This document shows positions 6,697 through 64,000 of a stretch of DNA of 64,000 nt, piece by piece (the first letter of the stretch is position 1; every line of letters starts with the position of its first letter). The DNA lies in the NCBI GenBank assembly GCA_026387435.1, contig JAPLLS010000093.1, forward strand, positions 1,059 through 65,058. Reading direction: 5' to 3'. Source of the DNA: Candidatus Omnitrophota bacterium (GTDB lineage Bacteria; Omnitrophota; Gorgyraeia; Gygaellales; Profunditerraquicolaceae). The notes under the pieces were generated by a model. It saw only the letters and a list, made by a program, of their open reading frames with translations, had not been told where the DNA came from and made no database searches. The position numbers and the translations under genes are program-made.

Positions 6697-6755
6697 ATAT
6701 AAAAGTAATTTGTGTTAAAATTTATCTGGAAACCCAAGTTAAAAAGAGGAATAAA

Positions 6756-9231: not shown

Positions 9232-9264
9232 AAAGGCTCTGGTAATTCAAAGGAGCCTTTTTTT
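9232..9264 (+). promoter_or_regulatory. Leader hairpin that sequesters the Shine-Dalgarno sequence, followed by a U-run, immediately upstream of the ATP-grasp/kamA operon.
   Basis: The 5' arm aaaggctc (9232-9239) pairs with gagccttt (9253-9260) over 8 bp, with a 13-nt loop. The 3' arm contains the aaggag Shine-Dalgarno sequence, 11 nt before GTG 9267. A 7-T run follows at 9258-9264. Confidence 0.4.
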
Positions 9265-9266
9265 GT

Positions 9267-12449: not shown

Positions 12450-12459
12450 GGATTTTCCC

Positions 12460-12488
12460 TTGACCGTCCTAAAATTTCCCCCTATAAT
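12460..12488 (+). promoter_or_regulatory. Sigma70-like promoter upstream of the EF-G paralog.
   Basis: TTGACC (12460-12465), a 17-nt spacer, then TATAAT (12483-12488). An AAAGGAG Shine-Dalgarno sequence lies just before ATG 12641. Confidence 0.5.
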
Positions 12489-12640
12489 AACTTTATCGGC
12501 TTTCCCAATCCCTTTTAATCCGGATTGAGTTTAGTTCCGAGCTTAAAACACCTCTAAAATCTATTGTTAGGATATTTGGCTTAATTCCTTAACCCGCCTT
12601 TGGGTTTTTAATACTTTCTTAAAGATAAAGGAGTATAAAA

Positions 12641-14575: not shown

Positions 14576-14714
14576 AAAGTCACAAGTGCTCCCTCGGCAA
14601 GCTTTCGCGGATTTTGTTAAAATCCGCTCAGCCTCGGGATAAATTCGGCCCAATAACTTATGTCGCACTTCGTGCTCCATAAGTTATGGCCTCATTTAAA
14701 GGAGATGTGGATAA

Positions 14715-39570: not shown

Positions 39571-39646
39571 GGGGCTGTAGCTCAGTTGGGAGAGCACTTG
39601 CATGGCATGCAAGGGGTCGAGGGTTCAACTCCCTCCAGCTCCACCA
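39571..39646 (+). tRNA. tRNA-Ala (anticodon GGC).
   Basis: A 76-nt cloverleaf reads by eye: acceptor ggggctg/cagctcc with the G3:U70 Ala identity pair, D-arm gctc-agttggg-agagc, anticodon stem cttgc/gcaag with loop atGGCat, T-arm gaggg-ttcaact-ccctc, and an encoded CCA. Confidence 0.85.
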
Positions 39647-43375: not shown

Positions 43376-43551
43376 TTGTATCCATCCTTGGGGCGGGTAA
43401 GAAGAAACCGCTTTCAAATTCCGCCCTTGCCCGTCTTGAAAACTACTCTATATATTATATACTTATTATATAAGGTTGAGAGACTCTAGTGCCTTCCAGC
43501 TGGTTACTGGGAGGTCTCTTTTTCTCCACAAAACAAAAAGTTTGTAAAAGT

Positions 43552-44580
43552 ATGATCAATCGGATTTTAGCATTTCTAATTTCGTTTTGTCTTATCTTCG
43601 AGCAGACCGGGTTTGCCCAGCTGGCTATTCCTATAGGCATACCCGGATATTTGAGTTTGCTGGCTCCGGTCGCCGATAAATTCCGGCCGATCCATCTGCG
43701 TTCCATTGATCTTAGCTCCGGTAATGGTAATTTCGAACTCATCCTGGACAAAGGCGACCTCAAGGATATCCAGCCCCGCCAGCTGGAAGAAACGACCAAA
43801 GAACTCTACCGATATTTCCAAATAGGTTTAGCTTTACCGAACAAGTATTTCTGGGTCAACCTCAGGCCGGATTCCCCTGATAGCATGATCGAGCCTTTGC
43901 TGGCCAAGACCGATCTGGGCAAGGTGATGCTAGAAGCCGATCTGCAGCTGAAAAAAGACCTGGCCAATTTTACATCTCTCCAGACTCCGGAAGGCAAACT
44001 TTACTGGGACAAACTTTACTCTAAAGCCAGCGAGCTTTACAACCAGCAGGATATCCAAATTCCCACCTTGACCCGTCCCTGGATCGTTCCCGGAGAAGTG
44101 GTGATTCGCTCTAGCCAAACCGGGGCTTTTGTTTACAAGGCTACGCTTAAGGTAATGCTGGAGCAGGACTATATCAAAGATTCCCCGGCGTATAATTTTA
44201 ACGACCCCCGGCTAAAAGAACTCAATGGTTATTCCTCTCAGCTTATCCGCGAACTGATCATTCCCAAGCTGACCCGGGAAGTCAATTCTTCCCGGCGCTA
44301 CTCGCAATTGCGCCAGGTTTATTATTCGTTGATCCTGGCCCAGTGGTTTAAGTCGAAATCTTTTGGAGTGGCTATGGTCGAAGGTCGGGTGGCGATGGCA
44401 CAAAAGACCGATAGCCAGGACTTGAGCGGGTTGACTTCCAAAACCAGCTGGTCAAAAGACACTTATTTCCAGGCCTACAAGAAGTCGTTCCAGAAAGGCG
44501 AATACAACCAGCAGGAGCAGGTGAATTCGCTCAATGGAATATCGATCCGGCAATACACCAGCGGCGGGATCCAGATAATG
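43552..44580 (+). repeat. About 1.03 kb direct repeat (copy 1): the shared 5' module of the two giant genes.
   Basis: About 88% nucleotide identity to 58476-59504. One example of several long identical runs: cggtcgggtggcgatggcacaaaagaccgatagccaggacttgagcgggttgacttccaaaaccagctggtcaaaagacacttatt occurs in both copies. Confidence 0.85.
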
Positions 44581-50500: not shown

Positions 50501-53500
50501 GTCAGAGCAAGGTAGAGCTGATTGCTGACCGCGACGGCCTGATCGGACTTAATATCGCTTTGCACAAACTGATGCAGAAGTTCGTGAGCGATGAAGTCAC
50601 CCTCGAGAATCCCGAACGCCACCTGTTGACCATGCGCGACATGCGCGGATGGGTCAAGGCGTTCATGAGCGAGTTGGGCAAAGGCGTTTTGCTTGAGGAA
50701 GCGTTCATGACGCCGTTCGAGCTTTTTTACCTGAAGCAATTCAGCCCTGAGGCATATGCGCTGGCGAGGGAACAGGTTGATAGCCTGCTGCTGAATCAGG
50801 AGATCGCCAAGGTGTTCAACAAAAAAGCATTAAAAGAAAGTAATGGGCGGCCATTGAAATACGCGGCAGCCGAAACGATCAGGACAACCCCCTCAAAGAC
50901 AATCAAGTCGGGGTCGGCCGGAAATGTCAAAGCTCAGGCCAATGAACAAAGCCTTATCGCGCATGAATGGACGGGGGAACTAAAGGTAAGCAAAGAAGAT
51001 GCGGTTATGACTGATGAGCGCCTGAAATCTCTCCAGGAATTAGTGGCTAGTCTGAGTTTTCCCGAGTCTTCTGTGCATTTCCACTACGGGGATATGGCAA
51101 TCCTGAAGGGCGCCTCTGGAGAAGATGTGTTCGTGTACACAGAAGCAGGATCGATCATGATTTTAAGAAAGAATTCCGCGGGCAGATTTGAGCGGACTGA
51201 AATCAAGAATTCGTTGCAAGGATCCGGTCGCTCTTTTAACGCGTTTCTCAATGAAAGAGGTTTGCTTACTGTCGTAACCAAGGAGTTTGATAGTGACAAG
51301 ATCACCCTGACCAGGGAAATGGAGCCGGATGTTTTTAGATCCAAGACTATCCAGGTAAACGGCATCGATCATTTTGGCCTTAGCTTTAAGGCGATTCAGG
51401 ATCTTCAGGGCAAGTTGGTTTTTGCCGACACCAACGAGCAAAAGAGCGTGATTACTCTATGCCGGGAGAGGGACAATTTTATTCCTAAAGACCTGATGTT
51501 CTCAGGGCATGATCTTTGCCGCAGGATAGATCTCCTGGAAGACGCGCAAGGAAAGTTGACAATAGCCGTTTCCGGCGAAGATACGCTGGCGATCATGCAG
51601 GAGAAGAACCCGGATGAGTTTGAGGTCAGGGAGCTCCGGAAGTCAACCCTTTCCAACGGCCAAGTCCAGCTGATGCGAGATAAAGAAAGCAAACTGATCA
51701 TTGCTGCCGTCGGAATGTTAAGCGGTACAGGCCCCAAGGATCCCCTTCCGGAGAAGAAAGACGGGCTCACTATCTTGCGGGAAGAGGATGATCAGACTTT
51801 CTCGGAAAGCCGGTTGGAAGGGAAAATTTACGGCAGTTTTGACGCGATGACGGACGAAGAAGGGTTTTTGTCGATAGTTTCATATAATCCGGAAAGACAT
51901 AGCCAAGCGGGGAAGGAAGAGTTGTATAATTCTCCTGAGATTGCTCTCTTGAAAGAGGTCTCGCTTGATGAATTTACCCGGAAGATTATGAAAAGGCCGG
52001 AAGAAAAAACGGTGACCAATAAAGTCAATATATTCAGGGATCAAGATGGCAGCGTGTCATTTGTTTCCGGGCACGTTGGCTATATCAACATCTGGAAAGA
52101 CGATGAGGCGCAGTTTACGGCATTTGGCGCGGCCGACCCGGCCCGGGCTAAGCCGAAGAAGTTCGCCAGCTCCGAAGTAGTTAAGCATACAAGTGGCCCC
52201 ATTGCGACGAAGAACATCGGCGCCTTAGAGGTGAGCGATGTTAAAGATTATTCCGCCGGGGAGCTGAAAACAAAGACAGTCGAAGCGGTCAGCGCGGTCG
52301 GTAAAGTTGAAAATATGAGCTCGAGCGTCTTGCGAGAACTGAAGTTTGAGTTAAGGATCGAGGAGTATCCGAATTTTTCCGGAGATAAGATCAGGGTGGT
52401 CCGGGATGAACAAGGGCTTTTGACCATTGTCACCATTTCTTCCGCGGATATCGCGATCTGGCGGCAGAACGCCGAAGGCGGCTTCGAGGTCTCGATGGTA
52501 AAAGGCGCGCAGGACAATTGGGGCACGCAGATGAGAGTTGTTCCGGGCAGCGACGGGTTGCTTTACATTGTTACCGAAGCTGAAAAAGACGATGGGTTGA
52601 AAGTGTGGCAGGAGATCGAAAAAAATAAGTTCCGGATCACGATCTTGCCGCGCCCCGCTTCAGGCAGAGGATTCGACGCATTTTCTGACGACAAGGGAGG
52701 GCTGACTATTGTCAACAGCCATTCCAGGGCCCAAGATGAAGATTCGATCAAGAACGGGGATTCTACCTTTGATATCTGGGAAATCCATAAAGACGGCTCG
52801 TGTGCCCTGCGCCAGGGGGTGTTGCCTGCAGTTCCAACTCGAAAGAAGGTGTTTTTGCTGTGGGCGGGCAGGGATCCTTCAGGCCGCTTGCAGTTCATGT
52901 GTGACGATCCGGCAAACTCGAATGATATTCTTATTTGCACCGAGGTTCAGAAAGATCGTTTTAGTATCGAGTTATTGAGGGCGGGGAATGAGGATATTCT
53001 GCTTGCTAAGGGAGCGTTCCGGGATGGAGCGGGAAAACTAAATATTTTTGGCCGTATGTCAAAGCAGGGGCCGGTGTTATTCGACCAGACCGAGCAGGGG
53101 AAATTCGTCCAGACAGTATTAGATATGCCTCTGTTTGGGGCGAGTGTCGCGGTGACTAAAAACAGCTGGGGTTTGTATTCGCTGGGGGTGAATAGTAAGG
53201 AGTACGAATCCAGCATAGGTATCGAGTCCAAGGTGAGCCTGATTGCCCAGGGGCAAGACAAAGAATTCCGGGTCAAAAAATTCAGGTTAAGGGAAAATTT
53301 CGACGAAATTATTGCTTTCGTCGATGAAGAAGGATACAGCACGTTCGTGTCAAGCCATGAGGGAGTGATCAGGATCTGGAAAGACGATGAGGAACGGTTC
53401 AAGAAAGCGCCTGAGCCATTGCCGGATGAGCAGGAAGAATTCGTCGATAAGGGGTTGACCATCGGATCTGAGGAACAGGTTAAGGCTGATCTGTCCAGGG

Positions 53501-56500
53501 TCTTCGAATACGGAGCGCACGGTTTGCTGCTTTTGGAACCGGGTGCGCGGGAACATCAGATTATCAGGGAATTCGGAAAAGAAAACGGCTACCAGTTGCT
53601 TCATCTTGAAAGCGTTCCGGAAATGACCGATATGGAGATCATCGGAGGGCTCTTCCCGATACTGGAGGATGAGCCGCGGGATAACGGCAGGGAATTCCGC
53701 GTCAAGCCGGGATTCCTCAGCCGCCACCTGGTGCCCGAGGAACAGCGCAACGAGCCGGGCAAAAAGAAGCTGCTGATTTTGCATAATATCGACGCTCTTC
53801 CGGAGCGGGTCCGCGCGGCGCTGAATAATTTCCTGATCAAGGGTTACTTGGAGATCAAGGATGATTCGGGCAGGAGCAAAAGGTATTATCTGCCTTCCGG
53901 CACGGACATCGTCGCGACGATATCCTCAAAAAGCCAGCGGGAATTTTCATCCGCGTTCTTCAACAGGTTCGTCAAAATTTATGTGCCATCGATAAAAGTA
54001 TTCCACCGGGGTTTTTCCGAACTGCTCCAGTTATTGATGTTCCAGTGCGGTCTTTCGGAATACGAAGCGCGCCAGCTGCAGAAGATCTATATCATGGTCA
54101 AGGCTCTGGAAGAAGGCGGCCAGTTCTGGCCTTCGGGGACCGATTATAATTTCACGGCCAAGGACGCGCTGCTCTTAGGAGAATTCGTCAGGCTGGCCAG
54201 GCAGGAAGCAGGCGGACAACTGGGCCGGAAAGACATGGAACGGTTGATCGTTCAGGAAGCGCTGCGCGCCTACGGTGGCCGGCTCTGCGAGCATGAAGAG
54301 GATTATACTAATTTTGTCGATTTGATCCTTAAGAATATTTTCGATCACGAAGTGGTAGAGGAGCTTTCCGGTGAGGTTTTGATGGAAGAAGGCCGACTGC
54401 TCGCTCTTTCGGGAGTGAATCTTCCCGCGGGAAGCCGCGGCTTGGCCTGGGATAAGACCGATCCGCGCTACCGCTTGACCCTGGTGCCGACGATCACCCG
54501 GACGATGTCCGGGATCCTGCGCGGATGGCAGGCGGGCAGGATGGTCAGCATTGTCGGCGAGACCGGGGTGGCCAAGACCACGATGGGTGTTTTTCTTTCC
54601 CAATTGCTGTTCGGAGCGTCAAACGGCATGGAGCATTATTACATCTACTCGACCCACGGCGAATCCAAGGCCAGGGACATGACCGTTCAGCTGCGCATGA
54701 ACCGCGAAGGGGCATTCCGCTTGGAGATGCAGGAATTCCTCAAGCGGGTCAAAGCCGGCAACCAGGTGATAATAGTCGACGAAGCGAACATGCGCCCGGA
54801 AATGCTCTGGGTGCTCAACGGCATTGCCCGCGGTGAGAAAGAGGTAAGCGTGGAGATCCCCGGTGAAGAGCCGTTTACCGTCGAGATTGGCGACAATGTC
54901 TATATCCTTCTGACTATGAACCCGGAGAGTTACACTGACCGCGGAGAGGTCCCGGGAGTGCTTCTGGAGAATGTTTTCCGGCTCTGGGCACCGGCACGTT
55001 ACGCTCAAGATGAGGTCATCCGGATCCTGAATGATCTTATCGACGCCTCCCAGCAGGCGGCGGTTTCCAAACGGTTATCGTTAATACAGGCGCGGTCAAC
55101 GCTTTCCGGAGCGGCGGCGCTGGTGACCCTTGAGGATTTTATCAAGCGCGTCGATGAGATAGGCTTCGATAATGCGCTGGAAGAACGCACGATCAAAGAA
55201 TTGCGCAAGCTGGAGAGGGATATCCTGGCCATGGAAAGCGTGCGAAAGAAGATGAACAAGGTGCGCTCCGGTGTGGCGGTCGCCGTTCCTAAAACCCGGA
55301 TCATCTTCTCGATCCTGACCTGGTGGGGTTCGACCGACGACCGCACGACCATCATCGTTCCGCTGCACGAGCTGGCCAATTCCAAGCGCACTCCCGAGAC
55401 GATCATCGGGATCGTCCTGCATGAGGCGCGCCATCAGCTTTATTCGCTTTCTCACCCGGAAATGGAAAAAGTCGCGGAGCCCGAACATTTGCAGATCGTA
55501 AAAAAAGAAGAATTCCACAATTTCTGGAACGGCTTGGAGGATGTGCGCATAAATTATATCAACGATCCGGTAATGGCCGGGGAACGCGCTTATATCAAGG
55601 CCTCGCTTGATGAGATGTGTAAGGATCTGACCCAGGAGCAGATCTCCGAGATGGTAAAGAACTATGAGTTCGAGATGGACAATATCTTCTTATTTGAGCT
55701 GGTTTTTTACGGAAGGACAGGCCGCTACCGGAATTCATTCGCCTCCCTTCCTGAGCCGATGCAGCAGGCGCTTAGATCGGTCATCGAGAAAAACGGCGCG
55801 GAACAATCATTGCTTGATCAGGTTACGAACAACGAGCAGGTCCTGCCGGATATGGCCGGGATACAGCAGGGGAAAAAGGATTTTGCCCAGGAGCGTTTGC
55901 GCTCGGGAAAGGTTTCGCTGGGCGCGATGTGCGCGAAGATCTGGCCAATATACGAGAAACTATTGAAGCAGGCCGATGAAAACCGCGAGAAAGCCGGCAA
56001 GAAAAAAGAGGGCAAAGGCGGGCGCGGCAAGGGAGGGGGTAAAGGTAGTGGCGGGCAAAGAGACGGAATGCCGTCATTCGGAAGGATTAGTCGGGAAGAA
56101 TTGGAGGATCTGATCGAAAATACTCCTCTTGGCGCGCTGCCTGAATCGCTGAGGGGCGGCCGGTCCGGCGGCAGACCCGGGAGAGGTAATCCAGCCGGCC
56201 AGGATGATGCCGGGGGTGGCGAGGGATCGGAAGGGGACGGATCCGAGGGAGATAATAACGACGATAACCAGTCAGGGCGGCCGAATTTCATGAATGACGA
56301 AGACCGCGACAAGGACGCGGATAATGATCTGGATAGAAAGATCAATGAGGCCAAGAATAAGCGTACGGAAGAGATGAAGAAAAATGAACCGTTAAATTAC
56401 GCTTTAAGCAATATTCCGGCGGCCAGTAAGCGGCTTGCCGACGGACTGGTGCAGCTGTTCCGCGTCCCGGACGAGCCGGATATAGAGGAGTCTCCTTCAG

Positions 56501-58470
56501 GATGGAAGATAAATCCGGTGCGCTATCTTTTGCGCAACATGAATCCCTTCGACGAAGAAGAAGACCGGCCGGGTAAGCCTGATCTGGCGTTCGGGGTGAC
56601 CATAGATCTGAGCGGCAGCATGCAGGGGTATTTTAAAGCGATCAAGGACATGAACGCGCTGTTCATGGCTACGTTCCAGAAGATCGGCAGGAAAAAGATA
56701 GATTACAGCATGGGTTACGAGAACAGGGCTTTCGGGGTGGTCAAGGCATTCGACGAGAAGCTGGGGCAGTCAGAATTGAACCGCAAATACGGGGAGTTCG
56801 GCGCCATCATCGATGCCCGCGGAAGGCCGGAAGATATAGGGGGAGAGGGGATCCATCTCTATGTCGCGGTGTGCGGAGTGATCGATAAATACAAGGCCAC
56901 TAAAAAGAAGAATAAGATCGAGATTATCATTACCGATGGGCAGGATATGGGAGGAGACTTGAGTTACGACATGTCCGGTCGTCCGATACCTTCTTTCAGG
57001 CTGAAACGCAAGCTGGATGAAGCCCGGCACCTGGGGATCGAGATCGTGGGGGTTGGTTTTAATACCCGCGATACCGAGGTCTTCGGAAAGTGGGTGCAGC
57101 TGGACGCGAACCAGGCGGACGCGGTGGTGGAGGCGCTTCTAAAGATCGCGCGCAGAAAGGCGCTCAGCGGCAAGCTGCCTGACGGGAACCTGGTTTCGGC
57201 GCTGAATATCAACCTCAACAGGTCCTGGGATAAAAGTCGAGCCGACGGCGGCAGCGAAGAGGCGGGATTCCGGTACGGCCAGAACGATAATGTTCAAACG
57301 GAAGATTTCGGTATTTCCCGCACAGCGCTTTCAACCCAGCAGCTTGGGCAGATGGAGCGGGGGGACGCGGTCATTACCATCGGCAGCTCCAAAGAATGGC
57401 GGGAAGCGAATGAGTCATACGCAGGATTCGTATTCAAGAATGGGACATTAATGCGATCCTGGGCGGCCGGAAAACCGCCGGCGATAAGCGGTGTTGTGCT
57501 GGCGAAATCCCTTGTCCGTGCCCAATCAAGACAGGAAGACAAGTCAGGGGGGGCGGTCAGCAAATATAGTGATTTTCGTACCGATTTAGAATCGTACAAT
57601 CGGCGTTTTTCTCCTCTTCTGGGAACAAAGATAGAGGAATATGTGATCGCGCAGGTGCGAAAAACAAAACAGATAATGCGGATCCTTGATTGGGGCTGCG
57701 GCGAAGGAGTCGCTTTAGTTGAACTGCTCAAGCGCCTGCCTGAAGATGTGCGTCCTATGGTCAAACTGTACGGCTTTAGCAATATGTATTTCGACGACTG
57801 GAAATTCCCCGAAGCAGCTGGTATCGATTTTATCCTCGATGACGGCCAGAACATCGGCTCTTATTTCGGAGGGGAACTCCCGATCGACATGGTCATCAGC
57901 AATCTCGGCTTGTGCCATGTCGAAGATATCGCTTATCTGGAAAAGATCGGCGCGATCATGAAGGACGAGGGGATACTGTTGACCGATGCTGTTTATGATG
58001 AACAGACCTGGGAAGACTGGCAAAAGTCGGCAAGGCAATTGTTCGAAATCAACTTTGATAAAAGAGCGACAAGATTAATGGCAAAGAAGAAGTCAACTTC
58101 CCGACCAGTCGGTCAGGACGGTGGAACGGCGCAAACAGATGATTTGGGCGGTATCGATTTTCGCCAGATCCCAGTAGCTGGTGAATCAGCGGTGACTACA
58201 GCGCTTACTCCGCAGCTGCAGCAGCTGGCGCAGAATTCCAAGATGGCAGATTTGGACCAGGAATGGAGCTGCATCCGTGGAGAAATGCTCGCTCCCCAGA
58301 TGCCGTACGGGAAGATCAGGGAATACATCGCGGTCTGCCTGAGCAGGCCGGGCTGCCGGAAGAAACTGGACCAGGCAGTAACCTGCATCATCGATATTCT
58401 CAGGATGGAAGAAGATCAGGCTCTGGCTACTAACCAGGAGCTCAAAGATATATTGATGTATTTAAGCTAA
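43552..58470 (+). CDS. Giant (about 4,973 aa) secreted or anchored midasin-like protein. It has an N-terminal conserved module, five or more AAA+ (AAA_5/MoxR-dynein class) modules, a repeat-rich linker, an acidic low-complexity tract, a VWA/MIDAS domain and a C-terminal class I SAM methyltransferase-like domain.
   Basis: One uninterrupted ORF. The start is chosen at MINRILAFLISFCLIFEQTGFA (signal-like), in line with the downstream paralog. Walker A motifs: GPTGTGKT (~46785), GEPGGGKT (~49981) and GETGVAKT (~54557). Degenerate AAA_5 modules at ~45556-45710 and ~53521-54000 carry the family's ...HP.F.hhhT.NP-like signatures. MIDAS motif DLSGS at 56604-56618, with ITDGQD at ~56925. MTase motif I ILDWGCGEG at 57681-57707. 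Confidence 0.85.
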   Translation: MINRILAFLISFCLIFEQTGFAQLAIPIGIPGYLSLLAPVADKFRPIHLRSIDLSSGNGNFELILDKGDLKDIQPRQLEETTKELYRYFQIGLALPNKYFWVNLRPDSPDSMIEPLLAKTDLGKVMLEADLQLKKDLANFTSLQTPEGKLYWDKLYSKASELYNQQDIQIPTLTRPWIVPGEVVIRSSQTGAFVYKATLKVMLEQDYIKDSPAYNFNDPRLKELNGYSSQLIRELIIPKLTREVNSSRRYSQLRQVYYSLILAQWFKSKSFGVAMVEGRVAMAQKTDSQDLSGLTSKTSWSKDTYFQAYKKSFQKGEYNQQEQVNSLNGISIRQYTSGGIQIMDQLKIQEIPGSVADFFTGNQEYFARLSMNSLTGDVNILPASPVLKSGGAQEFDGGKKISQESEKAKDAKRGNDQAFSSVREKFMLLTEAEKEELNRRLRELHQDSLSQTSLNKEESDREFYTITIREQRRFIAVFLDKFCAEIDLEVALRKEEAAVRTLGYLFSKIAGLFAKYLSKKKEIGKNRLEAVKRREIFDRAWQEASRIYLDMFPQPEKRTWNAPANVPAIYAEAYDKLQSCLTTDIPALFLYSLESRDSLDRAFELYQRNNPQVIVERVICTPDSDRMQLIGADMPVSAQDREFSKEKIRFQKGVLYRLVDQAKADPSKIFVLRLEQVEALSAKVWVQLNQFLLTGELWIPETNEKLILPDNLKIVASLSSGLRDSAFYDRFLRKQLNIPDRKSLVDYAVTRFGLPQVLIEEYCNLQADNSDKITMGQLLVLFSYMKGRLADENISANSQRGRAIITEERDLFFRSMARGKENILLAMGKKEEEPGGGNDPDTEMLNEVLEFSTENRLQITADFTPEEIGEIVLKYPADWKNKLKELKLIKEEERDLFFLARRSNEGPLKGINPDDETAMMVLEYGGKIGEVYSRMGELRTYAGLHKIDLSLEEARVIAILAPDQIEGILKGREDVSEVLMLVEMRMAFQSVITIVPGVKNVLVFEPKTGRFMADGVELPIRSELKDKIAEAMKTRDMEQAIREVFKAELGLTLTQDVARTLSAISRNYRYGTRVLRLEGPTGTGKTFMAQALAKMLDIPFYGEPFHAASKQSKLLGALKPDEKADYYMDSDTPFLQILEKGGVVALSELNAAVKDDKARFGWLMVPLARGDEKFILNQYPDGKETTRELTRHPDSMVIIDINPTESYEARGQLPGPLNEVTPAVWVEGRFESQELEDISGDYLAGLAQEDLDYYRGKIAGLHFAIQQELADEDGPWRQEEKEKREKFGGVDITQMLKAGRMSPMKAMKVFGPMFGVKMEGHDEEMAIQKTLAIDAPHIISLRELKRACRMIAENNGKLSREQNLIEAVMFYYGFAFKEIGDQERVERFIRRILAPSAPKWEPPIAIEKFVASGHRVICLVLDPEGADMQELRKAMKNNEIDKLNIERINGWVPLEVAKQGKIVNAEKEYPRLRATIEQLFENDSESFEKSIGFLITLKKQNKPDQGVVVSNELDQKLQELKSAAEQWAGSGNKLVKPWEMLDMIEKEQQRKSGTTVEVMAKVLAGKPPSISKEFAKKLLELRSRPARTSGVAEEIEKELKETPPPFVSSGTNDIPLRTRSVREDIRDWGTNPDRPIVARPDMKSDEYGVMVMDVDGTLIGSRLSGVAEDIEKELIKLMRSAVEPATGVPVDWNQIMLKYLKEPEPPLAEFQDKGLQYYLDYSLFRTKEPTLLSMDAVNDPMAQLRSAAEKRGRVVIEKLNTNLFTDDFTLFGGYIPDSEREAETGEAQLRLADGAMSRFIAQAAKAREEDKNLPEAERRIFVLAFENYHYLRPQIAVALNVILQERVYYPPTSTDRIELPDNLRFFATATNEAEFNLSLAEQSRWARIFFHKPNGPAPQADNDLYSSADPGLAGMLPTVAGGAMPYDNDSISAKDLMRMARVDVEGMLVNKPSRPPSDSGSMTTAGGAMLDILTSASELAEKYLKDAGIKIKIEDNGKITLPELREMKYKRLGSLEEKLKGADDKEISSFAQDDLVPRFTADPKLEQLIEDYCREFPAVDKEEVRVAAEAVAKKKGPGEEPVTIKEVQYTSAEELRNAYKIEPFERQHEPLAEEELMVPTNELLRQESMMVNAMNRGQVIICEGEPGGGKTDMGIDIAERLGLDSYIYSGHAGAHLRDFIGAYTKDEKGRFVLTCLPDKDGHFKVPFLEFYTHGGVYTFDEGALGKYPQALISWLTGIARGEQELVINEHPGQEPLRLKRHKHFHIVITTNPVDETPGRESISVEVLKAARRIWVENKLSDASYQAILDRFYDFYSRQSKVELIADRDGLIGLNIALHKLMQKFVSDEVTLENPERHLLTMRDMRGWVKAFMSELGKGVLLEEAFMTPFELFYLKQFSPEAYALAREQVDSLLLNQEIAKVFNKKALKESNGRPLKYAAAETIRTTPSKTIKSGSAGNVKAQANEQSLIAHEWTGELKVSKEDAVMTDERLKSLQELVASLSFPESSVHFHYGDMAILKGASGEDVFVYTEAGSIMILRKNSAGRFERTEIKNSLQGSGRSFNAFLNERGLLTVVTKEFDSDKITLTREMEPDVFRSKTIQVNGIDHFGLSFKAIQDLQGKLVFADTNEQKSVITLCRERDNFIPKDLMFSGHDLCRRIDLLEDAQGKLTIAVSGEDTLAIMQEKNPDEFEVRELRKSTLSNGQVQLMRDKESKLIIAAVGMLSGTGPKDPLPEKKDGLTILREEDDQTFSESRLEGKIYGSFDAMTDEEGFLSIVSYNPERHSQAGKEELYNSPEIALLKEVSLDEFTRKIMKRPEEKTVTNKVNIFRDQDGSVSFVSGHVGYINIWKDDEAQFTAFGAADPARAKPKKFASSEVVKHTSGPIATKNIGALEVSDVKDYSAGELKTKTVEAVSAVGKVENMSSSVLRELKFELRIEEYPNFSGDKIRVVRDEQGLLTIVTISSADIAIWRQNAEGGFEVSMVKGAQDNWGTQMRVVPGSDGLLYIVTEAEKDDGLKVWQEIEKNKFRITILPRPASGRGFDAFSDDKGGLTIVNSHSRAQDEDSIKNGDSTFDIWEIHKDGSCALRQGVLPAVPTRKKVFLLWAGRDPSGRLQFMCDDPANSNDILICTEVQKDRFSIELLRAGNEDILLAKGAFRDGAGKLNIFGRMSKQGPVLFDQTEQGKFVQTVLDMPLFGASVAVTKNSWGLYSLGVNSKEYESSIGIESKVSLIAQGQDKEFRVKKFRLRENFDEIIAFVDEEGYSTFVSSHEGVIRIWKDDEERFKKAPEPLPDEQEEFVDKGLTIGSEEQVKADLSRVFEYGAHGLLLLEPGAREHQIIREFGKENGYQLLHLESVPEMTDMEIIGGLFPILEDEPRDNGREFRVKPGFLSRHLVPEEQRNEPGKKKLLILHNIDALPERVRAALNNFLIKGYLEIKDDSGRSKRYYLPSGTDIVATISSKSQREFSSAFFNRFVKIYVPSIKVFHRGFSELLQLLMFQCGLSEYEARQLQKIYIMVKALEEGGQFWPSGTDYNFTAKDALLLGEFVRLARQEAGGQLGRKDMERLIVQEALRAYGGRLCEHEEDYTNFVDLILKNIFDHEVVEELSGEVLMEEGRLLALSGVNLPAGSRGLAWDKTDPRYRLTLVPTITRTMSGILRGWQAGRMVSIVGETGVAKTTMGVFLSQLLFGASNGMEHYYIYSTHGESKARDMTVQLRMNREGAFRLEMQEFLKRVKAGNQVIIVDEANMRPEMLWVLNGIARGEKEVSVEIPGEEPFTVEIGDNVYILLTMNPESYTDRGEVPGVLLENVFRLWAPARYAQDEVIRILNDLIDASQQAAVSKRLSLIQARSTLSGAAALVTLEDFIKRVDEIGFDNALEERTIKELRKLERDILAMESVRKKMNKVRSGVAVAVPKTRIIFSILTWWGSTDDRTTIIVPLHELANSKRTPETIIGIVLHEARHQLYSLSHPEMEKVAEPEHLQIVKKEEFHNFWNGLEDVRINYINDPVMAGERAYIKASLDEMCKDLTQEQISEMVKNYEFEMDNIFLFELVFYGRTGRYRNSFASLPEPMQQALRSVIEKNGAEQSLLDQVTNNEQVLPDMAGIQQGKKDFAQERLRSGKVSLGAMCAKIWPIYEKLLKQADENREKAGKKKEGKGGRGKGGGKGSGGQRDGMPSFGRISREELEDLIENTPLGALPESLRGGRSGGRPGRGNPAGQDDAGGGEGSEGDGSEGDNNDDNQSGRPNFMNDEDRDKDADNDLDRKINEAKNKRTEEMKKNEPLNYALSNIPAASKRLADGLVQLFRVPDEPDIEESPSGWKINPVRYLLRNMNPFDEEEDRPGKPDLAFGVTIDLSGSMQGYFKAIKDMNALFMATFQKIGRKKIDYSMGYENRAFGVVKAFDEKLGQSELNRKYGEFGAIIDARGRPEDIGGEGIHLYVAVCGVIDKYKATKKKNKIEIIITDGQDMGGDLSYDMSGRPIPSFRLKRKLDEARHLGIEIVGVGFNTRDTEVFGKWVQLDANQADAVVEALLKIARRKALSGKLPDGNLVSALNINLNRSWDKSRADGGSEEAGFRYGQNDNVQTEDFGISRTALSTQQLGQMERGDAVITIGSSKEWREANESYAGFVFKNGTLMRSWAAGKPPAISGVVLAKSLVRAQSRQEDKSGGAVSKYSDFRTDLESYNRRFSPLLGTKIEEYVIAQVRKTKQIMRILDWGCGEGVALVELLKRLPEDVRPMVKLYGFSNMYFDDWKFPEAAGIDFILDDGQNIGSYFGGELPIDMVISNLGLCHVEDIAYLEKIGAIMKDEGILLTDAVYDEQTWEDWQKSARQLFEINFDKRATRLMAKKKSTSRPVGQDGGTAQTDDLGGIDFRQIPVAGESAVTTALTPQLQQLAQNSKMADLDQEWSCIRGEMLAPQMPYGKIREYIAVCLSRPGCRKKLDQAVTCIIDILRMEEDQALATNQELKDILMYLS

Positions 58471-58475
58471 AACTA

Positions 58476-59504
58476 TGATCAAACAGATAGTAGCATTCCT
58501 AATCTCATTTTGCTTAATTTTCGAACAGACCGGGTTTGCCAAGCTGGCTATTCCTATGGGCATACCTGGTTATTTAAGTTCGCTCGCTCCGGTTGCCGAT
58601 AAATTCCGGCCAATCCATCTGCGTTCCATTGATCTCAATCCCGGTAATGGTAATTTTGAACTTATCCTGGATAAAGGCGACCTGAATGATATCCAGCCCC
58701 GTCAGTTGGAAGAAACCACCCAACAGCTTTACCGGTATTTCCAGGTAGGATTAGTTTTGCCGAACAAGTATTTCTGGGTCAACCTCAGGCCGGATTCCCC
58801 GGATGAAGTTATCGAGCCTTTACTGGAAAAGACCGATGTCGGCCGGATCATGTTAGCTAGCGATCTGCAATTAAAGAAAGACCTGGCCAATTTCACTTCT
58901 CCCCAGACTCCGGAAGGCAAACTTTACTGGGACAGGCTTTACGCCAAAGCAGGTGAGCTTTACAACCAGCAAGATATTCAAATCCCCACCTTGACCAGGC
59001 CGTGGATAGTTCCCGGGGAAATCGTGATCCGTTCCAGCCCAACCGGGGCTTTTGTTTACAAGGCTACTTTAAAAGTAATGCTGGAGCAGGACTATATCAA
59101 AGATTCCCCGGCTTATAATTTCAGCGACCCAAGGCTAAAAGAGTTGAACAGTTATTCCTCCAAGCTTATCCGCGAACTGATCATTCCCAAGCTGACCCGG
59201 GAAGTCAACTCATCCAAAAGATACGCTCAGTTGCGCCAGGTGTATTATTCGTTGATCCTGGCCCAGTGGTTTAAGTCGAAATCTTTTGGAATGGCTATGA
59301 TCGAAGGTCGGGTGGCGATGGCACAAAAGACCGATAGCCAGGACTTGAGCGGGTTGACTTCCAAAACCAGCTGGTCAAAAGACACTTATTATCGGGATTA
59401 CCGTAAATCATTCCAGAAGGGGGAATACAATCGCCAGGAGCAGGTCAGTTCCGTCTCAGGCCTTTCCATCCGCCAGTATTTCAGCGGCGGGATCATGATG
59501 ATGG
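58476..59504 (+). repeat. About 1.03 kb direct repeat (copy 2): the shared 5' module of the two giant genes.
   Basis: See copy 1. Identity falls off after ...SGGI(Q/M)IMD. Confidence 0.85.
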
Positions 59505-62500
59505 ATAAGCCGGTTGGAGAGTGGACCGTGATCAGTAAAGACGGCGGATTTGCGGCTAACCAGCCATTTTTCGAGCGGTTGGCCATAGATTCCCGCGGGG
59601 ATGTTGCTAATTTACCGGCCAGCTCTACTTTAGCCGACGGCGGACAGAAAACCAATGTGCCCAGTGTAGAAACGGTTAAGGCCGCTTCCGGTTCCAACCC
59701 AAAAAAGGCTGTGCGTTTACGCGATATCCCTCAGAAAATCATAGATTACGAAGCTTATTTAGCTCCGCCGTTGGGCGTAGGGGCTGCGGTATTCGTGTAT
59801 TCTATCAGTCCGGTTTTACTGTTGTGGCTGATCCCCGTCGGAATTGCCGCCGTAGCTATAATCGGAGCGGAGCTTGCGTCATTAGAGTATCGTAATATAA
59901 AGAAAACCGATCCGGATCTGCTTTTGATCGTCCGGGGAAATCCGCTTAGCCTGATCAATGCCGTAGAATCGTTGGCATTGGGATTAGACGGGATCTTTGA
60001 TATGGGGGAAGTCTGGCGTTCCCCGAGTAAAGTTTTTGTCAACCTTACCCGGATTATGTACTCTTTGCCGACAGGGCTTATTTGGACCGCCATGGAATTG
60101 GCCATTGATTACTTTAATGGTTCGCGCACGGGTGAAAATATTCTTAAATCCAAGCTGGATATGATGCGCTTTGCGATCCGCCACTCAAGCGGGATCAATC
60201 CGCTAAAAGTCATGTACAAGTTATTTCCTAGGTGGTGTTTTGCCAAAGGCGATGTCGAACGCAGGTTCATGCTTTATGAGACAACGCTGTTGCATGTACG
60301 AAGCAGCGGCGACCTTGAGGCCGCCAAGGAAGACACTTTCCGAAACAATACTTTCTTTGCTTCTGAAGCGGCTTTTTACCACCTGCTCAAACAGTTAAAG
60401 TTGGAAGAGTTCGATGAGACCCTGGAGAAAATTAAACAAGGCGACAACATCCTTTATCGGGGGTCGCAGATCAAGAAAAAGAACATAAGTTCCGATGACC
60501 TGATCAATCTCTATCTGGCAGAGCGCAACAGTATCTGGCAAGTACGTCAGGATAGAGGTTTGACTGAACAGGACCAGGCGCTTATTGATTTTTTCGCCAA
60601 ACGCGGCTTATCCGCCACACCCGATTACCGGAATATGCCGTATTATGCGTTCGTTGTTTTAAAATTGCTTGACCGGCATTTCAAGGATTACTTCAGCGCA
60701 AATGAACTCCTGGGAACACCCAAGTGTAACGAGCTTCTGGAAATGGACCACTTGACGAATGAGGAAGTCATCAAGGATTTGATAGAAGCAAGGATCGTCA
60801 TCGAAAACGGCGATGAATATTTCCTCTCTGAAAACTTCAAACAAATCTTCCTGCGATTCCTCGATAAAAACTACAGCGAAATAACCGAAGCCGAGCTTTC
60901 CGGAGTGCCCGAACACGAAGGAGCGCTCCATGTCGACGGTAAATTATATCGCTGGGCTCAAAACGCGGCATCATCGCAGCGGGGCAAAGAGGCGTTAGAC
61001 GGCGGCACGAAATCAATAATGCAAGCGCAGGGGCAAAATAAAATAAAGGTGATTAACTATCCCCGCAGCGGAGTAATAGCGGAACCGAATGTTATCGGTT
61101 TGAAGAATATCGTTACCGGCAAAGATTTTGAACTCCGCAGGATCAGCTCGAAGAAGAACAGTTTTTCGGTATGGATGGATAATGTCAAACTAAAAAGCCT
61201 TTTCGAGTTTGATGAGGATGAAAAGGAGGTCGCCGTACATAATATGGCCGTTCCGAGCGAGTATACTTCGCAGGGAATAGGGCTTACCGTCCTGCGATAT
61301 TTGGCCCAGCGCGCCAGGACAGGAGGCAAGGATCTGGTTTTACATACCGTATTCAGTTATGCCGTGGCCCGGATGTGCTACGAACATATCAGTAAGAATG
61401 CGCGATACCGGGAAAAGGTGCGTCATATTGAAGATGAGTTCGCCAAAATGATCTCAGTGCGGTTATTGGATGACGGCAGGGTTTTGGCGGACTGGAAGTC
61501 GGCTGCGGGAAAATCACCTCTTACCTACCAGGTTTTTTTATCAAAAGGCGTTTTGGATATTTCTATCAGGAACGAAGATATTATGACGACAGGGGAGGAA
61601 TCCGATGGCGGAAAGGAGTTAGAGGTCGCAGAGGCAGGGTTGAACCGGGATGATATGGAGAAATGGGTTTCTGATGCTTTGGAGAGGCCTGAACTCGCAG
61701 CGGGCATAAAGTCGGATGTCGGCGATGTGCTGGAGATGTCCGAGCAAGAGCTGGGGGGATGGTACGATTATTTCAGGGCGCGCGCGCTCAAGCAGTTGCG
61801 CGAATCGAAATCAGTCAGGATGCTGGAGAACAAAAAAGGTTTCAAGCTCTGGTTCCGGCTGAATGACTTTGACTTGGGTGGGTTGTTGTATCTTCTGGAT
61901 GAATTTAAAGATCATTCTTTGTCGCCGGAAGTTTCTTCGGCGCGAACAAAGCCCGGGATCTTAGAATCGCGCTGGCTGCGGTATACGATGCTGTTTTTGT
62001 TTGGGGCAACGCTATTTTCGAGTTTAGTCCCTCTTGTTTCCGGCTTAGACGCGCAGCTACTTGAAAATCACAGCGGTACAAACAACACCTTTGACCAGCC
62101 GGTTACCGTTTCTACTGAGGTTTTGTTCGACGAAATCCTCTCCCAGGATCGATCCCAGCTTGTGGTCGTGAACCCCTACCTGGAACAATATGTCAATAAG
62201 CTGCTGGACTGGGATAGTAAGGATTTAAAGAACAAAGCTTCTAAACTCACTGTTATCAGCACCCGCGACTTAAGAACTTCCGGGGAATTTAATAATCTTT
62301 TACAAAGCGAAAAGAAGCAAGGCAACGCGGACAGGGTAATTTTTGTCGGGAAATACGATAAATATCAGATAACACAATATCTTTCGCAGGATCAAAAGCT
62401 GGCGGTTGGCGATAGCGGGCGCATAAATAAACTAATCTCATTGCGCGACCAGCTTAATAATCTGACCGCCGGTATGGACCCGAACGCTTTCTATGAATAC

Positions 62501-64000
62501 GTCAGTTATCGAAATAAACTCAATAGATGGCCTACCGAGAAAGCGATCAGCATCCAAGGCGGGACTCCCCAGGAGCAGATCGATCGGACAGAGCGAGATT
62601 TGGCGCAAACCCAGGCGTGGGTTGATCAAAACAAGGAGCAATTCCAGGAAACCTACGATCGGTTTTTAGAGTATGATAATTTGCTGTACGATGAGACATC
62701 CGAAGGCAACGTCCCGGCTTACCTGGAAGAAAATAATCTGACGGTCCAATCGCTGTTCCCGGATATTTTTAATCAAGCCCAACGGGGCAAGCACGCCTCT
62801 CATGTCGAGAAATTCATTTTAGACCATCAAATCAACGGCCAGATACCCGGCAATATGGTCTCTGAGATAGTGGAGCCATTACCGGACTTATTTCTGTCCG
62901 GACACAACAAAACTTACGGCCAGGATCAGAACCGGCCGTTATTGCTTGTGGTCGAAGGCGACGCGATACAATCTTTGAGTCAATACCTGAGTGATTACCA
63001 ATTTTACGGCGCAAGAGAAGGCCGCGTTATCGAAGTGTTTAATCCCACCGGACGGGATCTGGGAGAAAGCGTTTCTTACGTCGAATATAAAGGTGAGTTA
63101 GGTTATCAGATAGGGTTTTTAGGGAATAATTCCGGGATGGCTAAAAATAATTACCGGCCTGATGACCTGAAAACGCTGGAGGAGCTGGAAAAACTAAAGG
63201 AAAAAGTGAACGGGCTCGCGCAAAATTATGATGGCGATCCCGCCGCTGATTACGACAAGTATAGGCGCCTCTCGGATGAAAGTTACGAAATCAGCCTTCA
63301 TATGCTGGCTATTGAGACTTCGGAGGACGCTTATGAAAGACGCCAGGAATGGGAGGATTACAACAGGCAGCATGATGAACTTCAGCCTGAGCTGGATAAG
63401 ATAAGCGGAAAACTGGGCCAACCGCTTCTCTGGGCAACGTACAAATTCAAAGAGAAGCTCTACGAGGAAGAGCGAACAGGAGCAATCTACAGGCTTATTC
63501 AGGCGGGGAACGATCCTCAAAGCTGGTTCCCTGTGACTTTTAGCAAGGATTCATCCTTCCAGTATGGCAGTTCTCTCTTTCCGGACGCGATATACTCATT
63601 GAAAACCTACGAAAAGGTGGGTGGGGCTTATCATGAGCATGATGCGGATAAGATAAAGGATATTGAGAAAGCCAAAGCCCTAAAGATACTGCTGGAAGCA
63701 TCGCTAAGCGACTACAAGAAAAACCACCCCAACTCAACTTTCGAGAAAGATTGTGAAGAACTTAAGTCGAGGATAACCAAATCTGATACTGACGTTTACA
63801 TGGAAATATTATTCAGCGGAGACCCCCGGGCTAAAGATATCTGCAGGATCCTGGACATTGAGGGCGCCCTCGGGCAAAGCGGATTTTACGGTGTCTATCA
63901 GGGGGAAGACGGCAAGATTTACTCGAGCGAAGAATCTTATCATGCCTACAGGGATTACACTGCTTTCAGGGATTATGTCGAGGCGAAATGGGGATCCGAA
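58476..64000 (+). CDS. Second giant gene, open at the 3' end of the window with at least 1,841 codons. It shares the N-terminal ~343-aa module with the upstream giant protein and then diverges into a transmembrane-containing region and further uncharacterised domains.
   Basis: ATG 58476 lies 5 nt after the upstream stop. The translation MIKQIVAFLISFCLIFEQTGFAKLAIPMGIPGYLSSLAPVADKFRPIHLRSIDL... parallels the upstream N-terminus. The frame was checked by eye and no stop was seen through 64000. The ORF track omitted it because no stop falls in the window. Confidence 0.7.

What the first reader, a model, noticed from the sequence alone, without database searches (positions are those of the whole stretch)
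58476..64000. Second giant ORF runs off the window end and was missed by the ORF track
From ATG 58476 the plus-strand frame stays open through 64000 as far as I can read, more than 1,840 codons. After the shared N-module it contains a strongly hydrophobic stretch (VGAAVFVYSISPVLLLWLIPVGIAAVAIIGA, ~59760-59880), consistent with one or two transmembrane helices. Further on there is a possible GNAT-like motif, SQGIGLTVLRYLAQRA (~61270), which I can only call tentative. All minus-strand ORFs listed across this region are short and overlap it. The locus is therefore a multi-giant-gene operon of more than 20 kb.
Basis: partly seen in the sequence, partly recalled or inferred. Interest (0 to 1): 0.65.

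Follow-up and report, generated by a model that had tools for sequence, protein, structure and literature searches.

The report
Truncated modular surface-protein gene, Omnitrophota family
The open frame is a real, large gene cut off by the window edge, and it belongs to a previously uncatalogued, very large Omnitrophota family in which a conserved N-terminal export/surface domain (and normally a conserved C-terminal domain) brackets freely swapped enzyme modules.

Summary
The ATG is at 58475, not 58476, and the frame stays open for 1,842 codons to 64000 (chance about 4e-45). ORF2 lies 4 nt after the stop of a 4,973-aa gene (ORF1) and shares an 81%-identical N-terminal module with it.

That module ("N-cap") has a signal-peptide-like leader and a confidently modelled domain with no PDB neighbour. 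It heads at least 814 proteins and 455 loci, nearly all Omnitrophota. 101 of 120 relatives also end in the ~115-aa "C-cap" seen at ORF1's C-terminus. The cargo between the caps varies widely and is separated by (K/R)DGG joints.

ORF2's cargo:
- a second hydrophobic segment;
- about 630 aa of orphan sequence.

The N-cap core is homologous (hhalign E 8e-41) to a domain of signal-peptide-bearing Streptomyces proteins with C-terminal anchors, one of them sortase-type. This argues that the family is exported. ORF2's 3' end could not be recovered. No Pfam or NCBIfam model or searched paper describes the caps.

The parts
58475..64000 (+). ORF2, 5'-complete and 3'-truncated CDS (1,842 codons seen)
   Evidence: Open frame with no stop; coding signature and chance estimate; homologs.
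58475..58540 (+). Signal-peptide-like leader MIKQIVAFLISFCLIFEQTGFA (basic n-region, 12-residue h-region, G-F-A at -3..-1)
   Evidence: Sequence inspection. Q18, G20, F21 and A22 are invariant or nearly so in alignment A1. No dedicated signal-peptide predictor was run.
58601..59506 (+). N-cap core domain (aa 43-344), an alpha/beta fold with no PDB neighbour
59636..59644 (+). DGG joint 1 (aa 388-390), end of the N-cap
   Evidence: The first DGG after aa 330 falls at a median of aa 397 in 70 family proteins.
59645..60997 (+). Cargo module 1 (aa 391-841): hydrophobic hairpin plus a ~360-aa domain shared with P0007
   Evidence: The single BLAST alignment to P0007 (38% identity overall, aa 1-832) continues past the N-cap through this module. 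No Pfam, NCBIfam or PDB-sequence match.
59765..59887 (+). Hydrophobic segment aa 431-471, probably a two-helix hairpin
   Evidence: Kyte-Doolittle 19-residue window peak 2.62. P0007 has two separate hydrophobic helices at the aligned position.
60998..61006 (+). DGG joint 2 (aa 842-844)
   Evidence: It coincides with the start of homology to P0001, P0002, P0005 and P0121.
61007..61603 (+). Cargo module 2 (aa 845-1043): divergent GNAT-like module, with motif-A-like YTSQGIGLT at aa 930-938 (nt 61262-61288)
61604..61612 (+). DGG joint 3 (aa 1044-1046)
   Evidence: Homology to the L002 module starts at aa 1045.
61607..62098 (+). Cargo module 3 (aa 1045-1208), including a second hydrophobic segment at aa 1170-1191 (nt 61982-62047)
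   Evidence: 69% identical to a module of the syntenic N-cap gene in L002. Hydrophobicity.
62099..64000 (+). Distal orphan cargo (aa 1209-1842); aa 1462-1842 is 38% identical to P0003 aa 835-1223
   Evidence: No hit among 1.84 billion representatives, in PDB sequences, or in Pfam/NCBIfam.
43549..58470 (+). ORF1, the 4,973-aa upstream family member: N-cap, several AAA_5-type ATPase modules, an acidic tract, a weak vWA, a methyltransferase and a C-cap
58114..58467 (+). C-cap of ORF1 (last ~118 aa: GGIDFRQIPV ... ILRMEEDQALATNQELKDILMYLS)
   Evidence: Found at the extreme C-terminus of 101 of 120 N-cap proteins. G[IV]D[FLM]R lies 90-150 aa from the C-terminus in nearly all of the 101/120 proteins that carry it. 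Alignment A7. No Pfam or NCBIfam model.
58468..58474 (+). ORF1 stop (TAA) plus the 4-nt spacer before the ORF2 ATG
   Evidence: No promoter-like or terminator-like site in 58200-58700. Both genes share TAAAA-N-TATGATCAA around the start codon.

Best explanation
ORF2 is a genuine protein-coding gene of a Candidatus Omnitrophota genome. Its 5' end is complete and its 3' end is cut by the window. It sits in tandem with ORF1, 4 nt downstream.

Both genes belong to a large paralogous family with a fixed chassis:
1. a Sec-type leader;
2. a ~300-aa 'N-cap' core domain;
3. a variable train of cargo modules joined by (K/R)DGG linkers;
4. a ~115-aa 'C-cap' at the very C-terminus.

ORF2's visible cargo is a membrane hairpin with a ~360-aa domain, a divergent GNAT-fold module, a module with a further hydrophobic helix, and about 630 aa of orphan sequence. 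By analogy with 101 of 120 relatives, the missing end should carry a C-cap.

Proposed mechanism (inferred): the leader sends the N-cap across the cytoplasmic membrane, and the N-cap acts as a common extracytoplasmic, envelope-associated domain. The hydrophobic segments tether ORF2 in the membrane. The constant caps perform a shared targeting, anchoring or assembly step, while recombination swaps cargo modules at the flexible DGG joints. Each genome thereby gets a repertoire of surface-tethered or exported multi-enzyme proteins.

Shown: the gene is real, N-cap membership, the mosaic cargo, the GNAT-like fold, the tandem arrangement, and N-cap homology to exported Streptomyces proteins.

Inferred: export and topology, co-transcription, a C-cap on ORF2, and any enzymatic activity.
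For: - Real gene: open frame and coding statistics and purifying selection on the N-cap.
- Family size: at least 814 proteins with E<=1e-3. 455 loci in GTDB representative genomes, nearly all labelled Omnitrophota, with several copies per genome and tandem arrays.
- C-cap: present at the extreme C-terminus of 101 of 120 relatives.
- Mosaic cargo: different ORF2 segments match P0007, P0001/P0002/P0005/P0121, L002 and P0003 separately.
- DGG joints: 350 observed against 66 expected in 121 proteins. All 21 sites in the three closest relatives lie outside their Pfam-detected domains, at the edges of the BLAST-defined modules. Observed/expected is 3.6 in family genes and 0.74 in neighbouring genes.
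- Rapid cargo turnover: a genome with 92%-identical LeuRS and the same synteny carries a different cargo at this position.
- GNAT fold.
- Exported topology: the leader has basic n-, hydrophobic h- and G-F-A c-regions. The N-cap core is homologous (probability 100%, E 8e-41) to a domain of Streptomyces proteins that have a signal peptide and a C-terminal TM+RRR anchor, one with a LADTG/LAETG-type sortase signal.
- Tandem, operon-like arrangement.
Against: - The C-cap of ORF2 is not seen, and the contig could not be extended.
- No signal-peptide or TM predictor was available, so topology rests on hydrophobicity and the positive-inside rule.
- Family cargo is dominated by cytoplasm-type enzymes that need ATP, SAM, NAD or acetyl-CoA (AAA+ ATPases, methyltransferases, GNATs, glycolytic enzymes, response regulators). 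65 of 120 members have no internal hydrophobic segment, which is hard to reconcile with an extracytoplasmic workplace.
- The GNAT-like module is below Pfam's threshold, seems to lack the N-terminal helices, and rests on a 6-sequence alignment (overall pLDDT 63.5).
- No conserved neighbouring gene such as a protease or transporter supports a dedicated pathway.
Confidence: 0.62

Rival explanations
1. Cytoplasmic, membrane-tethered enzyme scaffold. The N-terminal hydrophobic helix is an uncleaved anchor, or is not membrane-spanning at all. The N-cap, cargo and C-cap all stay in the cytoplasm, where the caps organise multi-enzyme assemblies at the membrane.
For: Cargo domains are typical cytoplasmic enzymes that need ATP, SAM, NAD or acetyl-CoA. 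More than half of the members have no internal TM segment, so the caps and cargo sit on one side of the membrane. Both Omnitrophota preprints note that predicted extracellular locations of such enzymes look implausible.
Against: The leader has the n/h/c layout of a Sec signal, with positive charges on the N-side and a G-F-A site. The homologous domain in Streptomyces sits in proteins with a signal peptide and a C-terminal membrane or sortase anchor, i.e. outside the cytoplasm.
Confidence: 0.2
2. Polyprotein precursor. The (K/R)DGG joints are double-glycine-type cleavage sites, so ORF1 and ORF2 are processed into separate enzymes after synthesis or export. This could be true together with either topology.
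For: DGG is 5.3-fold enriched, usually follows K or R, lies at domain boundaries and has domain-sized spacing (median ~210 aa). C39-type peptidase domains have been proposed to cleave Omnitrophota giant proteins.
Against: No peptidase domain was detected in ORF1 or ORF2, and none recurs nearby. The median is only one DGG per protein across the 120 relatives, so the motif is concentrated in this sub-lineage. A flexible linker explains the same data. There are no proteomic data.
Confidence: 0.15
3. Non-functional or artefactual ORF: a decaying duplicate of ORF1's 5' end fused to junk, or an assembly chimera created by the repeated N-cap.
For: The 84%-identical N-cap repeat could mislead assemblers. 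The distal ~800 aa has no hit among 1.84 billion representatives. The source contig was not found elsewhere.
Against: A 1,842-codon open frame has P about 4e-45 by chance. The coding signature is uniform to the window end. Third-position divergence between the two N-caps shows purifying selection. Four separate cargo segments have homologs in other family members. Tandem N-cap genes are common elsewhere.
Confidence: 0.03

Closest known systems
Long or giant multi-enzyme proteins of Omnitrophota (West-Roberts et al. 2023, bioRxiv 10.1101/2023.11.21.568195; bioRxiv 10.64898/2026.06.07.730766)
   Same: Same phylum. The cargo repertoire is the same (GNAT, methyltransferase, HK-type ATPase, AAA_5, PGM, ROK, HEAT, response regulator). 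Both have N-terminal signal or TM predictions, few annotated domains, sequence-unique cargo, and the same localisation paradox.
   Different: Those studies treat proteins of >=10 kaa or >30 kaa and define Archaeovorin, Dockerin-type, tandem-repeat and multi-enzyme classes by Pfam content. ORF1 and ORF2 are 1.8-5 kaa and show no SecA_DEAD, C39 or dockerin domains. In the passages I read, the conserved N-cap/C-cap bookends and DGG joints are not described.
Streptomyces hypothetical surface proteins (e.g. WP_121549542.1, WP_251091514.1), one with an LAETG-type sortase signal (NF041528)
   Same: They share the whole N-cap core, including the FWVNL.P, TD.GR..L.ADLQLK, R.WIVPG, Y..LR.VY and GE[FY] motifs (hhalign probability 100%, E 8e-41). 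They also have an N-terminal signal peptide.
   Different: The domain is internal (aa ~380-667 of ~770), preceded by an unrelated ~350-aa region. There is no variable enzyme cargo and no C-cap. Anchoring is by a C-terminal TM or sortase signal. The proteins are uncharacterised, so the homology gives location but not function.
Polymorphic toxin / Rhs / CDI-type modular proteins
   Same: Large multi-copy families with constant trafficking parts and rapidly exchanged functional modules. Closely related genomes carry different cargo at the same locus.
   Different: In those systems the variable part is the extreme C-terminus and is paired with an immunity gene. Here both termini are conserved and the variable part is internal. 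The cargo is metabolic or regulatory enzymes, not recognisable toxins, and no immunity-like partner recurs.
GNAT (GCN5-related N-acetyltransferase) superfamily
   Different: The module is below Pfam's gathering score. The modelled core begins with beta-strands rather than the GNAT N-terminal helices. Motif A is T-S-Q-G-I-G rather than Q/R-x-x-G-x-G/A. ORF2 lacks a ~50-aa insertion present in its four closest homologs. Activity is unknown.

Membership tests
Omnitrophota N-cap/C-cap modular family (defined here) | Leader plus N-cap domain at the N-terminus | tested here: met
   ORF2 aa 1-390 is 49-80% identical to the N-termini of the 120 listed relatives. It carries the invariant motifs of alignment A1.
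Omnitrophota N-cap/C-cap modular family (defined here) | C-cap (~115 aa, GGIDFR...LRxEE...) at the extreme C-terminus | not testable with these tools
   ORF2 runs off the window, and all attempts to extend it failed. The C-cap is present in ORF1 and in 101 of 120 relatives.
Omnitrophota N-cap/C-cap modular family (defined here) | Cargo modules separated by DGG joints | tested here: met
   DGG occurs at aa 356, 388, 842 and 1044 (0.5 expected). Three of these coincide with BLAST-defined module boundaries.
GNAT acetyltransferase superfamily (module aa 845-1043) | GNAT core fold (beta4-alpha3-beta5-alpha4-beta6) | tested here: met
GNAT acetyltransferase superfamily (module aa 845-1043) | Score above the Pfam PF00583 gathering threshold | tested here: not met
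   18.5 bits against a 20.7 cutoff, E 0.0025. A profile of the module finds no PDB sequence at E<=1.
GNAT acetyltransferase superfamily (module aa 845-1043) | Motif A (Q/R-x-x-G-x-G/A) for acetyl-CoA pyrophosphate binding | tested here: inconclusive
   The sequence is T-S-Q-G-I-G-L-T. The G-x-G is invariant in 6 homologs, but the first position is T, or the last is T if the register is shifted.
GNAT acetyltransferase superfamily (module aa 845-1043) | Acyl-CoA-dependent transferase activity | not testable with these tools
   This needs biochemistry.
Omnitrophota 'giant genes' (Archaeovorin / Dockerin-type) | Length >=10 kaa (or >30 kaa), SecA_DEAD, C39 or dockerin domains, many TM helices | tested here: not met
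   ORF1 is 4,973 aa and ORF2 at least 1,842 aa. Pfam finds none of these domains. ORF1 has no internal hydrophobic segment and ORF2 has two.
Sec-type signal peptide | Basic n-region, 10-15-residue h-region, small residues at -3/-1 | tested here: inconclusive
   MIKQ / IVAFLISFCLIF / EQTGFA fits by inspection and is conserved. No SignalP or DeepTMHMM was available.
Operon with ORF1 | Same strand, short gap, no intervening terminator or promoter; co-transcription | tested here: inconclusive
   The gap is 4 nt and no consensus sites are found. Transcription itself cannot be tested here.
Polymorphic toxin systems | Variable C-terminal toxin tip plus an adjacent immunity gene | tested here: not met
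   The C-terminus is the conserved part. No neighbour family recurs in more than 12 of 77 loci.
Sortase-dependent surface proteins | C-terminal LPXTG/LAETG motif plus TM plus basic tail | tested here: not met
   This was found only in a Streptomyces homolog. The Omnitrophota C-cap has no TM segment or sorting motif.

The most novel reading that the evidence does not exclude
The N-cap and C-cap form a phylum-wide export and display chassis. An extracytoplasmic domain shared with sortase-anchored actinobacterial surface proteins, together with a dedicated C-terminal domain, lets ultra-small, host-dependent Omnitrophota place or deliver interchangeable cytoplasm-type enzymes (AAA+ machines, acetyl- and methyltransferases, glycolytic enzymes) at the cell surface or into a partner cell. 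Cargo is reshuffled at DGG joints, and the proteins may be cut there. The GGIDF motif opens the core domain in Streptomyces but opens the C-cap in Omnitrophota. That could mean the C-cap docks back onto the N-cap, either closing the protein into a loop or linking molecules head to tail.
Probability: 0.25. Interest if true: 0.8.

Novelty: new variant of a known kind. Interest (0 to 1): 0.58.

Why it matters
Omnitrophota are widespread, uncultured, ultra-small bacteria thought to live on other cells. Their long multi-enzyme proteins are a recognised puzzle: nobody knows where these proteins work or how they are handled.

This locus shows that many mid-sized members share a constant N-terminal domain, and usually a constant C-terminal domain, around swappable cargo. 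The N-terminal domain is homologous to one in exported Streptomyces proteins that carry C-terminal membrane or sortase-type anchors.

This provides:
- concrete handles for family-wide annotation (hundreds of 'hypothetical' or 'HEAT repeat' proteins could be grouped);
- a testable prediction about localisation;
- defined junctions (DGG) for probing processing and domain shuffling.

For this window specifically, it shows that an ORF track which drops edge-truncated ORFs hid a 5.5-kb gene.

Tried and rejected
- **Extending the contig.** Exact 53-mer scans of genome contigs and metagenome contigs found nothing. Look-ups of ORF1 with either start found nothing. A neighbouring leuS is only on a 4.2-kb Logan contig. 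A relative search with ORF2 aa 1442-1842 in metagenomes found nothing.
- **Homolog searches of the cargo.** The word-indexed search with aa 401-1842 gave one hit, and the GNAT-like profile gave one. Exhaustive HMMER with aa 1045-1842 gave zero, even though P0003 and L002 share parts of it, so that library's representatives miss them.
- **N-cap/C-cap docking.** Coordinates and PAE are not returned in any case.
- **GACGGCGG as a recombination or RNA signal at DGG joints.** It looked striking: 70% of joints, 109 in frame against 3.2 expected. A control then showed that non-family genes of the same genomes encode DGG the same way (57%, Fisher p=0.17) and that D before G is generally GAC. Rejected: it is genome-wide codon-context bias.
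- **C-cap start as a mimic of the N-cap's first strand.** hhalign probability is 0.3% against the N-cap, and only a 12-residue GGIDF match (4%) against Streptomyces. Rejected as homology and kept only as an unexplained motif.
- **A conserved partner gene near family members.** None recurs in more than 12 of 77 loci.
- **Other checks.** Rfam finds no regulatory RNA near the genes. Literature searches for the motifs and for descriptions of the caps found nothing.

Full report
**Observation.** Translating from exactly 58476 gives a frame full of stops. The ATG is at 58475-58477, in the frame that is open from 58466 to the window end, giving 1,842 codons. The other five frames carry 65-118 stops over the same 5.5 kb. 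The chance of no stop is about 3.8e-45. GC by codon position (about 0.52/0.35/0.56) is uniform in six successive windows and resembles leuS. The ORF lister omits ORFs that run off the source, which explains the 'missed' gene. Minus-strand ORFs here are at most 116 aa and have no Pfam match.

**Relation to the upstream gene.** ORF1 most likely starts at ATG 43549. The longer GTG-43489 reading would include a terminator-like hairpin downstream of a promoter-like site, and homologs start at the MI(K/N)R position. ORF1 ends at TAA 58468-58470, 4 nt before ORF2's ATG. No promoter-like or terminator-like site lies between them. The first ~390 aa of the two proteins are 81% identical. At nucleotide level they are 84% identical, with 88/92/72% identity by codon position, so both copies are under purifying selection. 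Co-transcription is plausible but was not tested.

**The N-module is a family hallmark.**
- A database search with ORF2 returned at least 814 proteins. Every one that carries an organism name is from Candidatus Omnitrophota, and the alignments cover only the first 18-26% of the query in all but one case.
- Their other domains are extremely diverse: HEAT repeats, phosphoglucomutase, enolase, GAPDH/PGK, transaldolase, ROK kinases, response regulators, histidine-kinase ATPases, GNATs, methyltransferases and metallophosphatases.
- Scanning one genome per GTDB species found 455 loci, with many copies per genome and tandem arrays such as four N-caps in 20 kb in L003.
- The last ~115 aa of ORF1 (GGIDFRQIPV...ILRMEEDQALATNQELKDILMYLS) recur at the extreme C-terminus of 101 of the 120 listed relatives. 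The family therefore has a constant N-cap, a constant C-cap and variable cargo. Gene sizes run from about 640 aa to more than 3,500 aa.
- Neither cap matches any Pfam-A or NCBIfam model, even at E<=1.
- I found no description of the caps in the Omnitrophota giant-protein papers or by motif search. Those papers do describe the same kind of multi-enzyme cargo in much longer proteins.

**Anatomy of ORF2.** The visible part is a mosaic in which each segment matches a different relative:
- aa 1-390, N-cap;
- aa 391-841, a hydrophobic segment (431-471) plus a ~360-aa domain covered by the single alignment to P0007 (38% identity over aa 1-832). P0007 has two separate hydrophobic helices at the aligned position, so a hairpin is likely;
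- aa 845-1043, a module shared with P0001, P0002, P0005 and P0121 at 42-51% identity;
- aa 1045-1208, 69% identical to a module in L002, and containing a second hydrophobic segment at aa 1170-1191;
- aa 1462-1842, 38% identical to the middle of P0003.

The distal 798 aa found nothing in an exhaustive HMMER search of 1.84 billion representatives, in PDB sequences, or in Pfam/NCBIfam. That part is effectively orphan sequence.

**DGG joints.** The module boundaries coincide with the tripeptide DGG (aa 388, 842, 1044).
- Across the family DGG is 5.3-fold enriched (350 observed against 66 expected), with K or R before it in 54% of cases.
- Spacing is domain-sized, with a median of about 210 aa.
- All 21 sites in the three closest relatives lie outside their Pfam-detected domains, at the edges of the BLAST-defined modules.
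- Observed/expected is 3.6 in family genes and 0.74 in neighbouring genes of the same genomes.
- The motif is concentrated in this sub-lineage: the median over all 120 relatives is one per protein.

**Cargo turnover.** L002, from an Omnitrophota MAG, has the same gene order (AP endonuclease, LeuRS, N-cap gene), with LeuRS 92% and the endonuclease 88% identical to the window. Its N-cap gene (at least 3,593 aa) shares only the N-cap with ORF1. With ORF2 it shares only the N-cap plus one 164-aa module. Cargo is therefore exchanged on a short evolutionary timescale.

**What the N-cap is.**
- A tblastn against plasmids unexpectedly found homologs on Streptomyces megaplasmids (E to 9e-33). Profile-profile comparison aligns N-cap aa 43-344 with aa 379-667 of these ~770-aa hypothetical proteins at 100% probability, E 8e-41.
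- Those proteins have a classical signal peptide and a C-terminal TM helix with a basic tail. One has LADTG and a near-threshold hit to the Streptomyces LAETG sortase-signal model. The domain is thus found in proteins built for export and surface anchoring.
- The Omnitrophota leader has a basic n-region, a 12-residue h-region and a conserved G-F-A. Taken together, this favours an exported N-cap.
- The difficulty, already noted in the literature for the giant proteins, is that the cargo looks cytoplasmic and over half the family has no further TM segment. I therefore keep a cytoplasmic-scaffold rival at about 0.2 and a processing (polyprotein) add-on at about 0.15.

**Ideas tested and dropped.**
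- GACGGCGG. DGG joints are encoded by this octamer in 70% of cases and in a strictly frame-specific way. Non-family genes of the same genomes encode DGG the same way in 57% of cases (p=0.17), so this is general codon-context bias and not a recombination or RNA signal.
- The C-cap is not related to the N-cap. Its resemblance to the start of the Streptomyces core is limited to the GGIDF motif.
- No neighbouring gene family is conserved around family members.
- The family is essentially absent from viral contigs: 2 loci in 2.9 million contigs.

**Limits.** ORF2's 3' end could not be recovered by any route. Its total length and its C-cap are therefore predictions. Topology was not computed with a dedicated predictor. 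The GNAT model rests on a shallow alignment. Function is inferred.

**Verdict.** The gene is an ordinary member of an unusual and apparently undescribed family architecture within the known phenomenon of long modular Omnitrophota proteins.

Noticed in passing
window 43549-58470 (+), ORF1: ORF1 has a midasin/MoxR-like layout: AAA_5-type P-loop modules near aa 1078, 2115 and 3664; a long Gly/Asp/Glu-rich acidic tract; a weak vWA with a DLSGS MIDAS-like motif (E 0.0094, sub-threshold); a SAM-methyltransferase; and the C-cap. All of this follows a signal-peptide-like leader, and there is no internal hydrophobic segment.
   Followed up: partly
window 43376-43548: The leuS-ORF1 spacer is AT-rich. 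It has a promoter-like site (43436-43463, 10 of 12 matches) followed by a terminator-like hairpin with a T-tract (43491-43515), lying inside the alternative GTG-43489 reading of ORF1. It could be the leuS terminator or a 5'-leader structure. Rfam finds nothing here.
   Followed up: partly
L081 6726-9044, L082 6717-8993, L083 4828-7206 (Streptomyces megaplasmids): These are uncharacterised ~770-aa Streptomyces proteins with a signal peptide, an unknown ~350-aa region, an N-cap-like core bracketed by GGIDF... and GGVDF... motifs, and a C-terminal TM or LADTG sortase signal. They have no Pfam family. In L082 a PrsW-family intramembrane protease lies immediately upstream, and sigma-70 family sigma-factor genes lie near two of the three.
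   Followed up: partly
ORF1 C-cap (window 58114-58467) and Streptomyces L081 aa 374-385: The motif GGIDF(R/T)xL opens the C-cap in Omnitrophota but opens the N-cap-like core in Streptomyces, whereas the Omnitrophota N-cap has DKFRPLHL at that position. Only 12 residues match (hhalign probability 4%), so it is an unexplained motif coincidence or a hint of cap-cap interaction.
   Followed up: partly
L002 (JBFZAG010000031.1), 4338-15117: This is a syntenic locus in a closely related MAG (LeuRS 92% identical). It carries one N-cap gene of at least 3,593 aa that runs off its contig, with cargo unrelated to ORF1. The whole ORF1 cargo has therefore been gained, lost or replaced between close relatives.
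   Followed up: partly
77 Omnitrophota loci plus the window: There is genome-wide codon-context bias. Asp is GAC in 33% of cases overall but in 66% when the next residue is Gly, and DGG is encoded as GACGGC in 57% of non-family cases.
   Followed up: yes
(representative library): The exhaustive HMMER search returned no hit for ORF2 aa 1045-1842, although P0003 and L002 clearly share parts of it. Clustering at 50% identity probably files such mosaic proteins under representatives with different cargo, so modular families are under-sampled there.
   Followed up: no
L079, L080 (IMG/VR contigs): Two contigs classed as viral encode N-cap proteins (60-63% identical). They are probably misclassified cellular fragments or host-derived genes.
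   Followed up: no
window 39571-39643 (+): A tRNA gene, the only Rfam hit in the window, lies just upstream of the AP-endonuclease / response-regulator / leuS block that precedes ORF1.
   Followed up: no
L001 (Logan SRR20698647, 4,248 bp): A public sequencing run contains a contig whose LeuRS protein is exactly identical to the window's. The contig breaks 105 codons into the gene that follows leuS (ORF1's position). This suggests that short-read assemblies fragment at the repeated N-cap.
   Followed up: no
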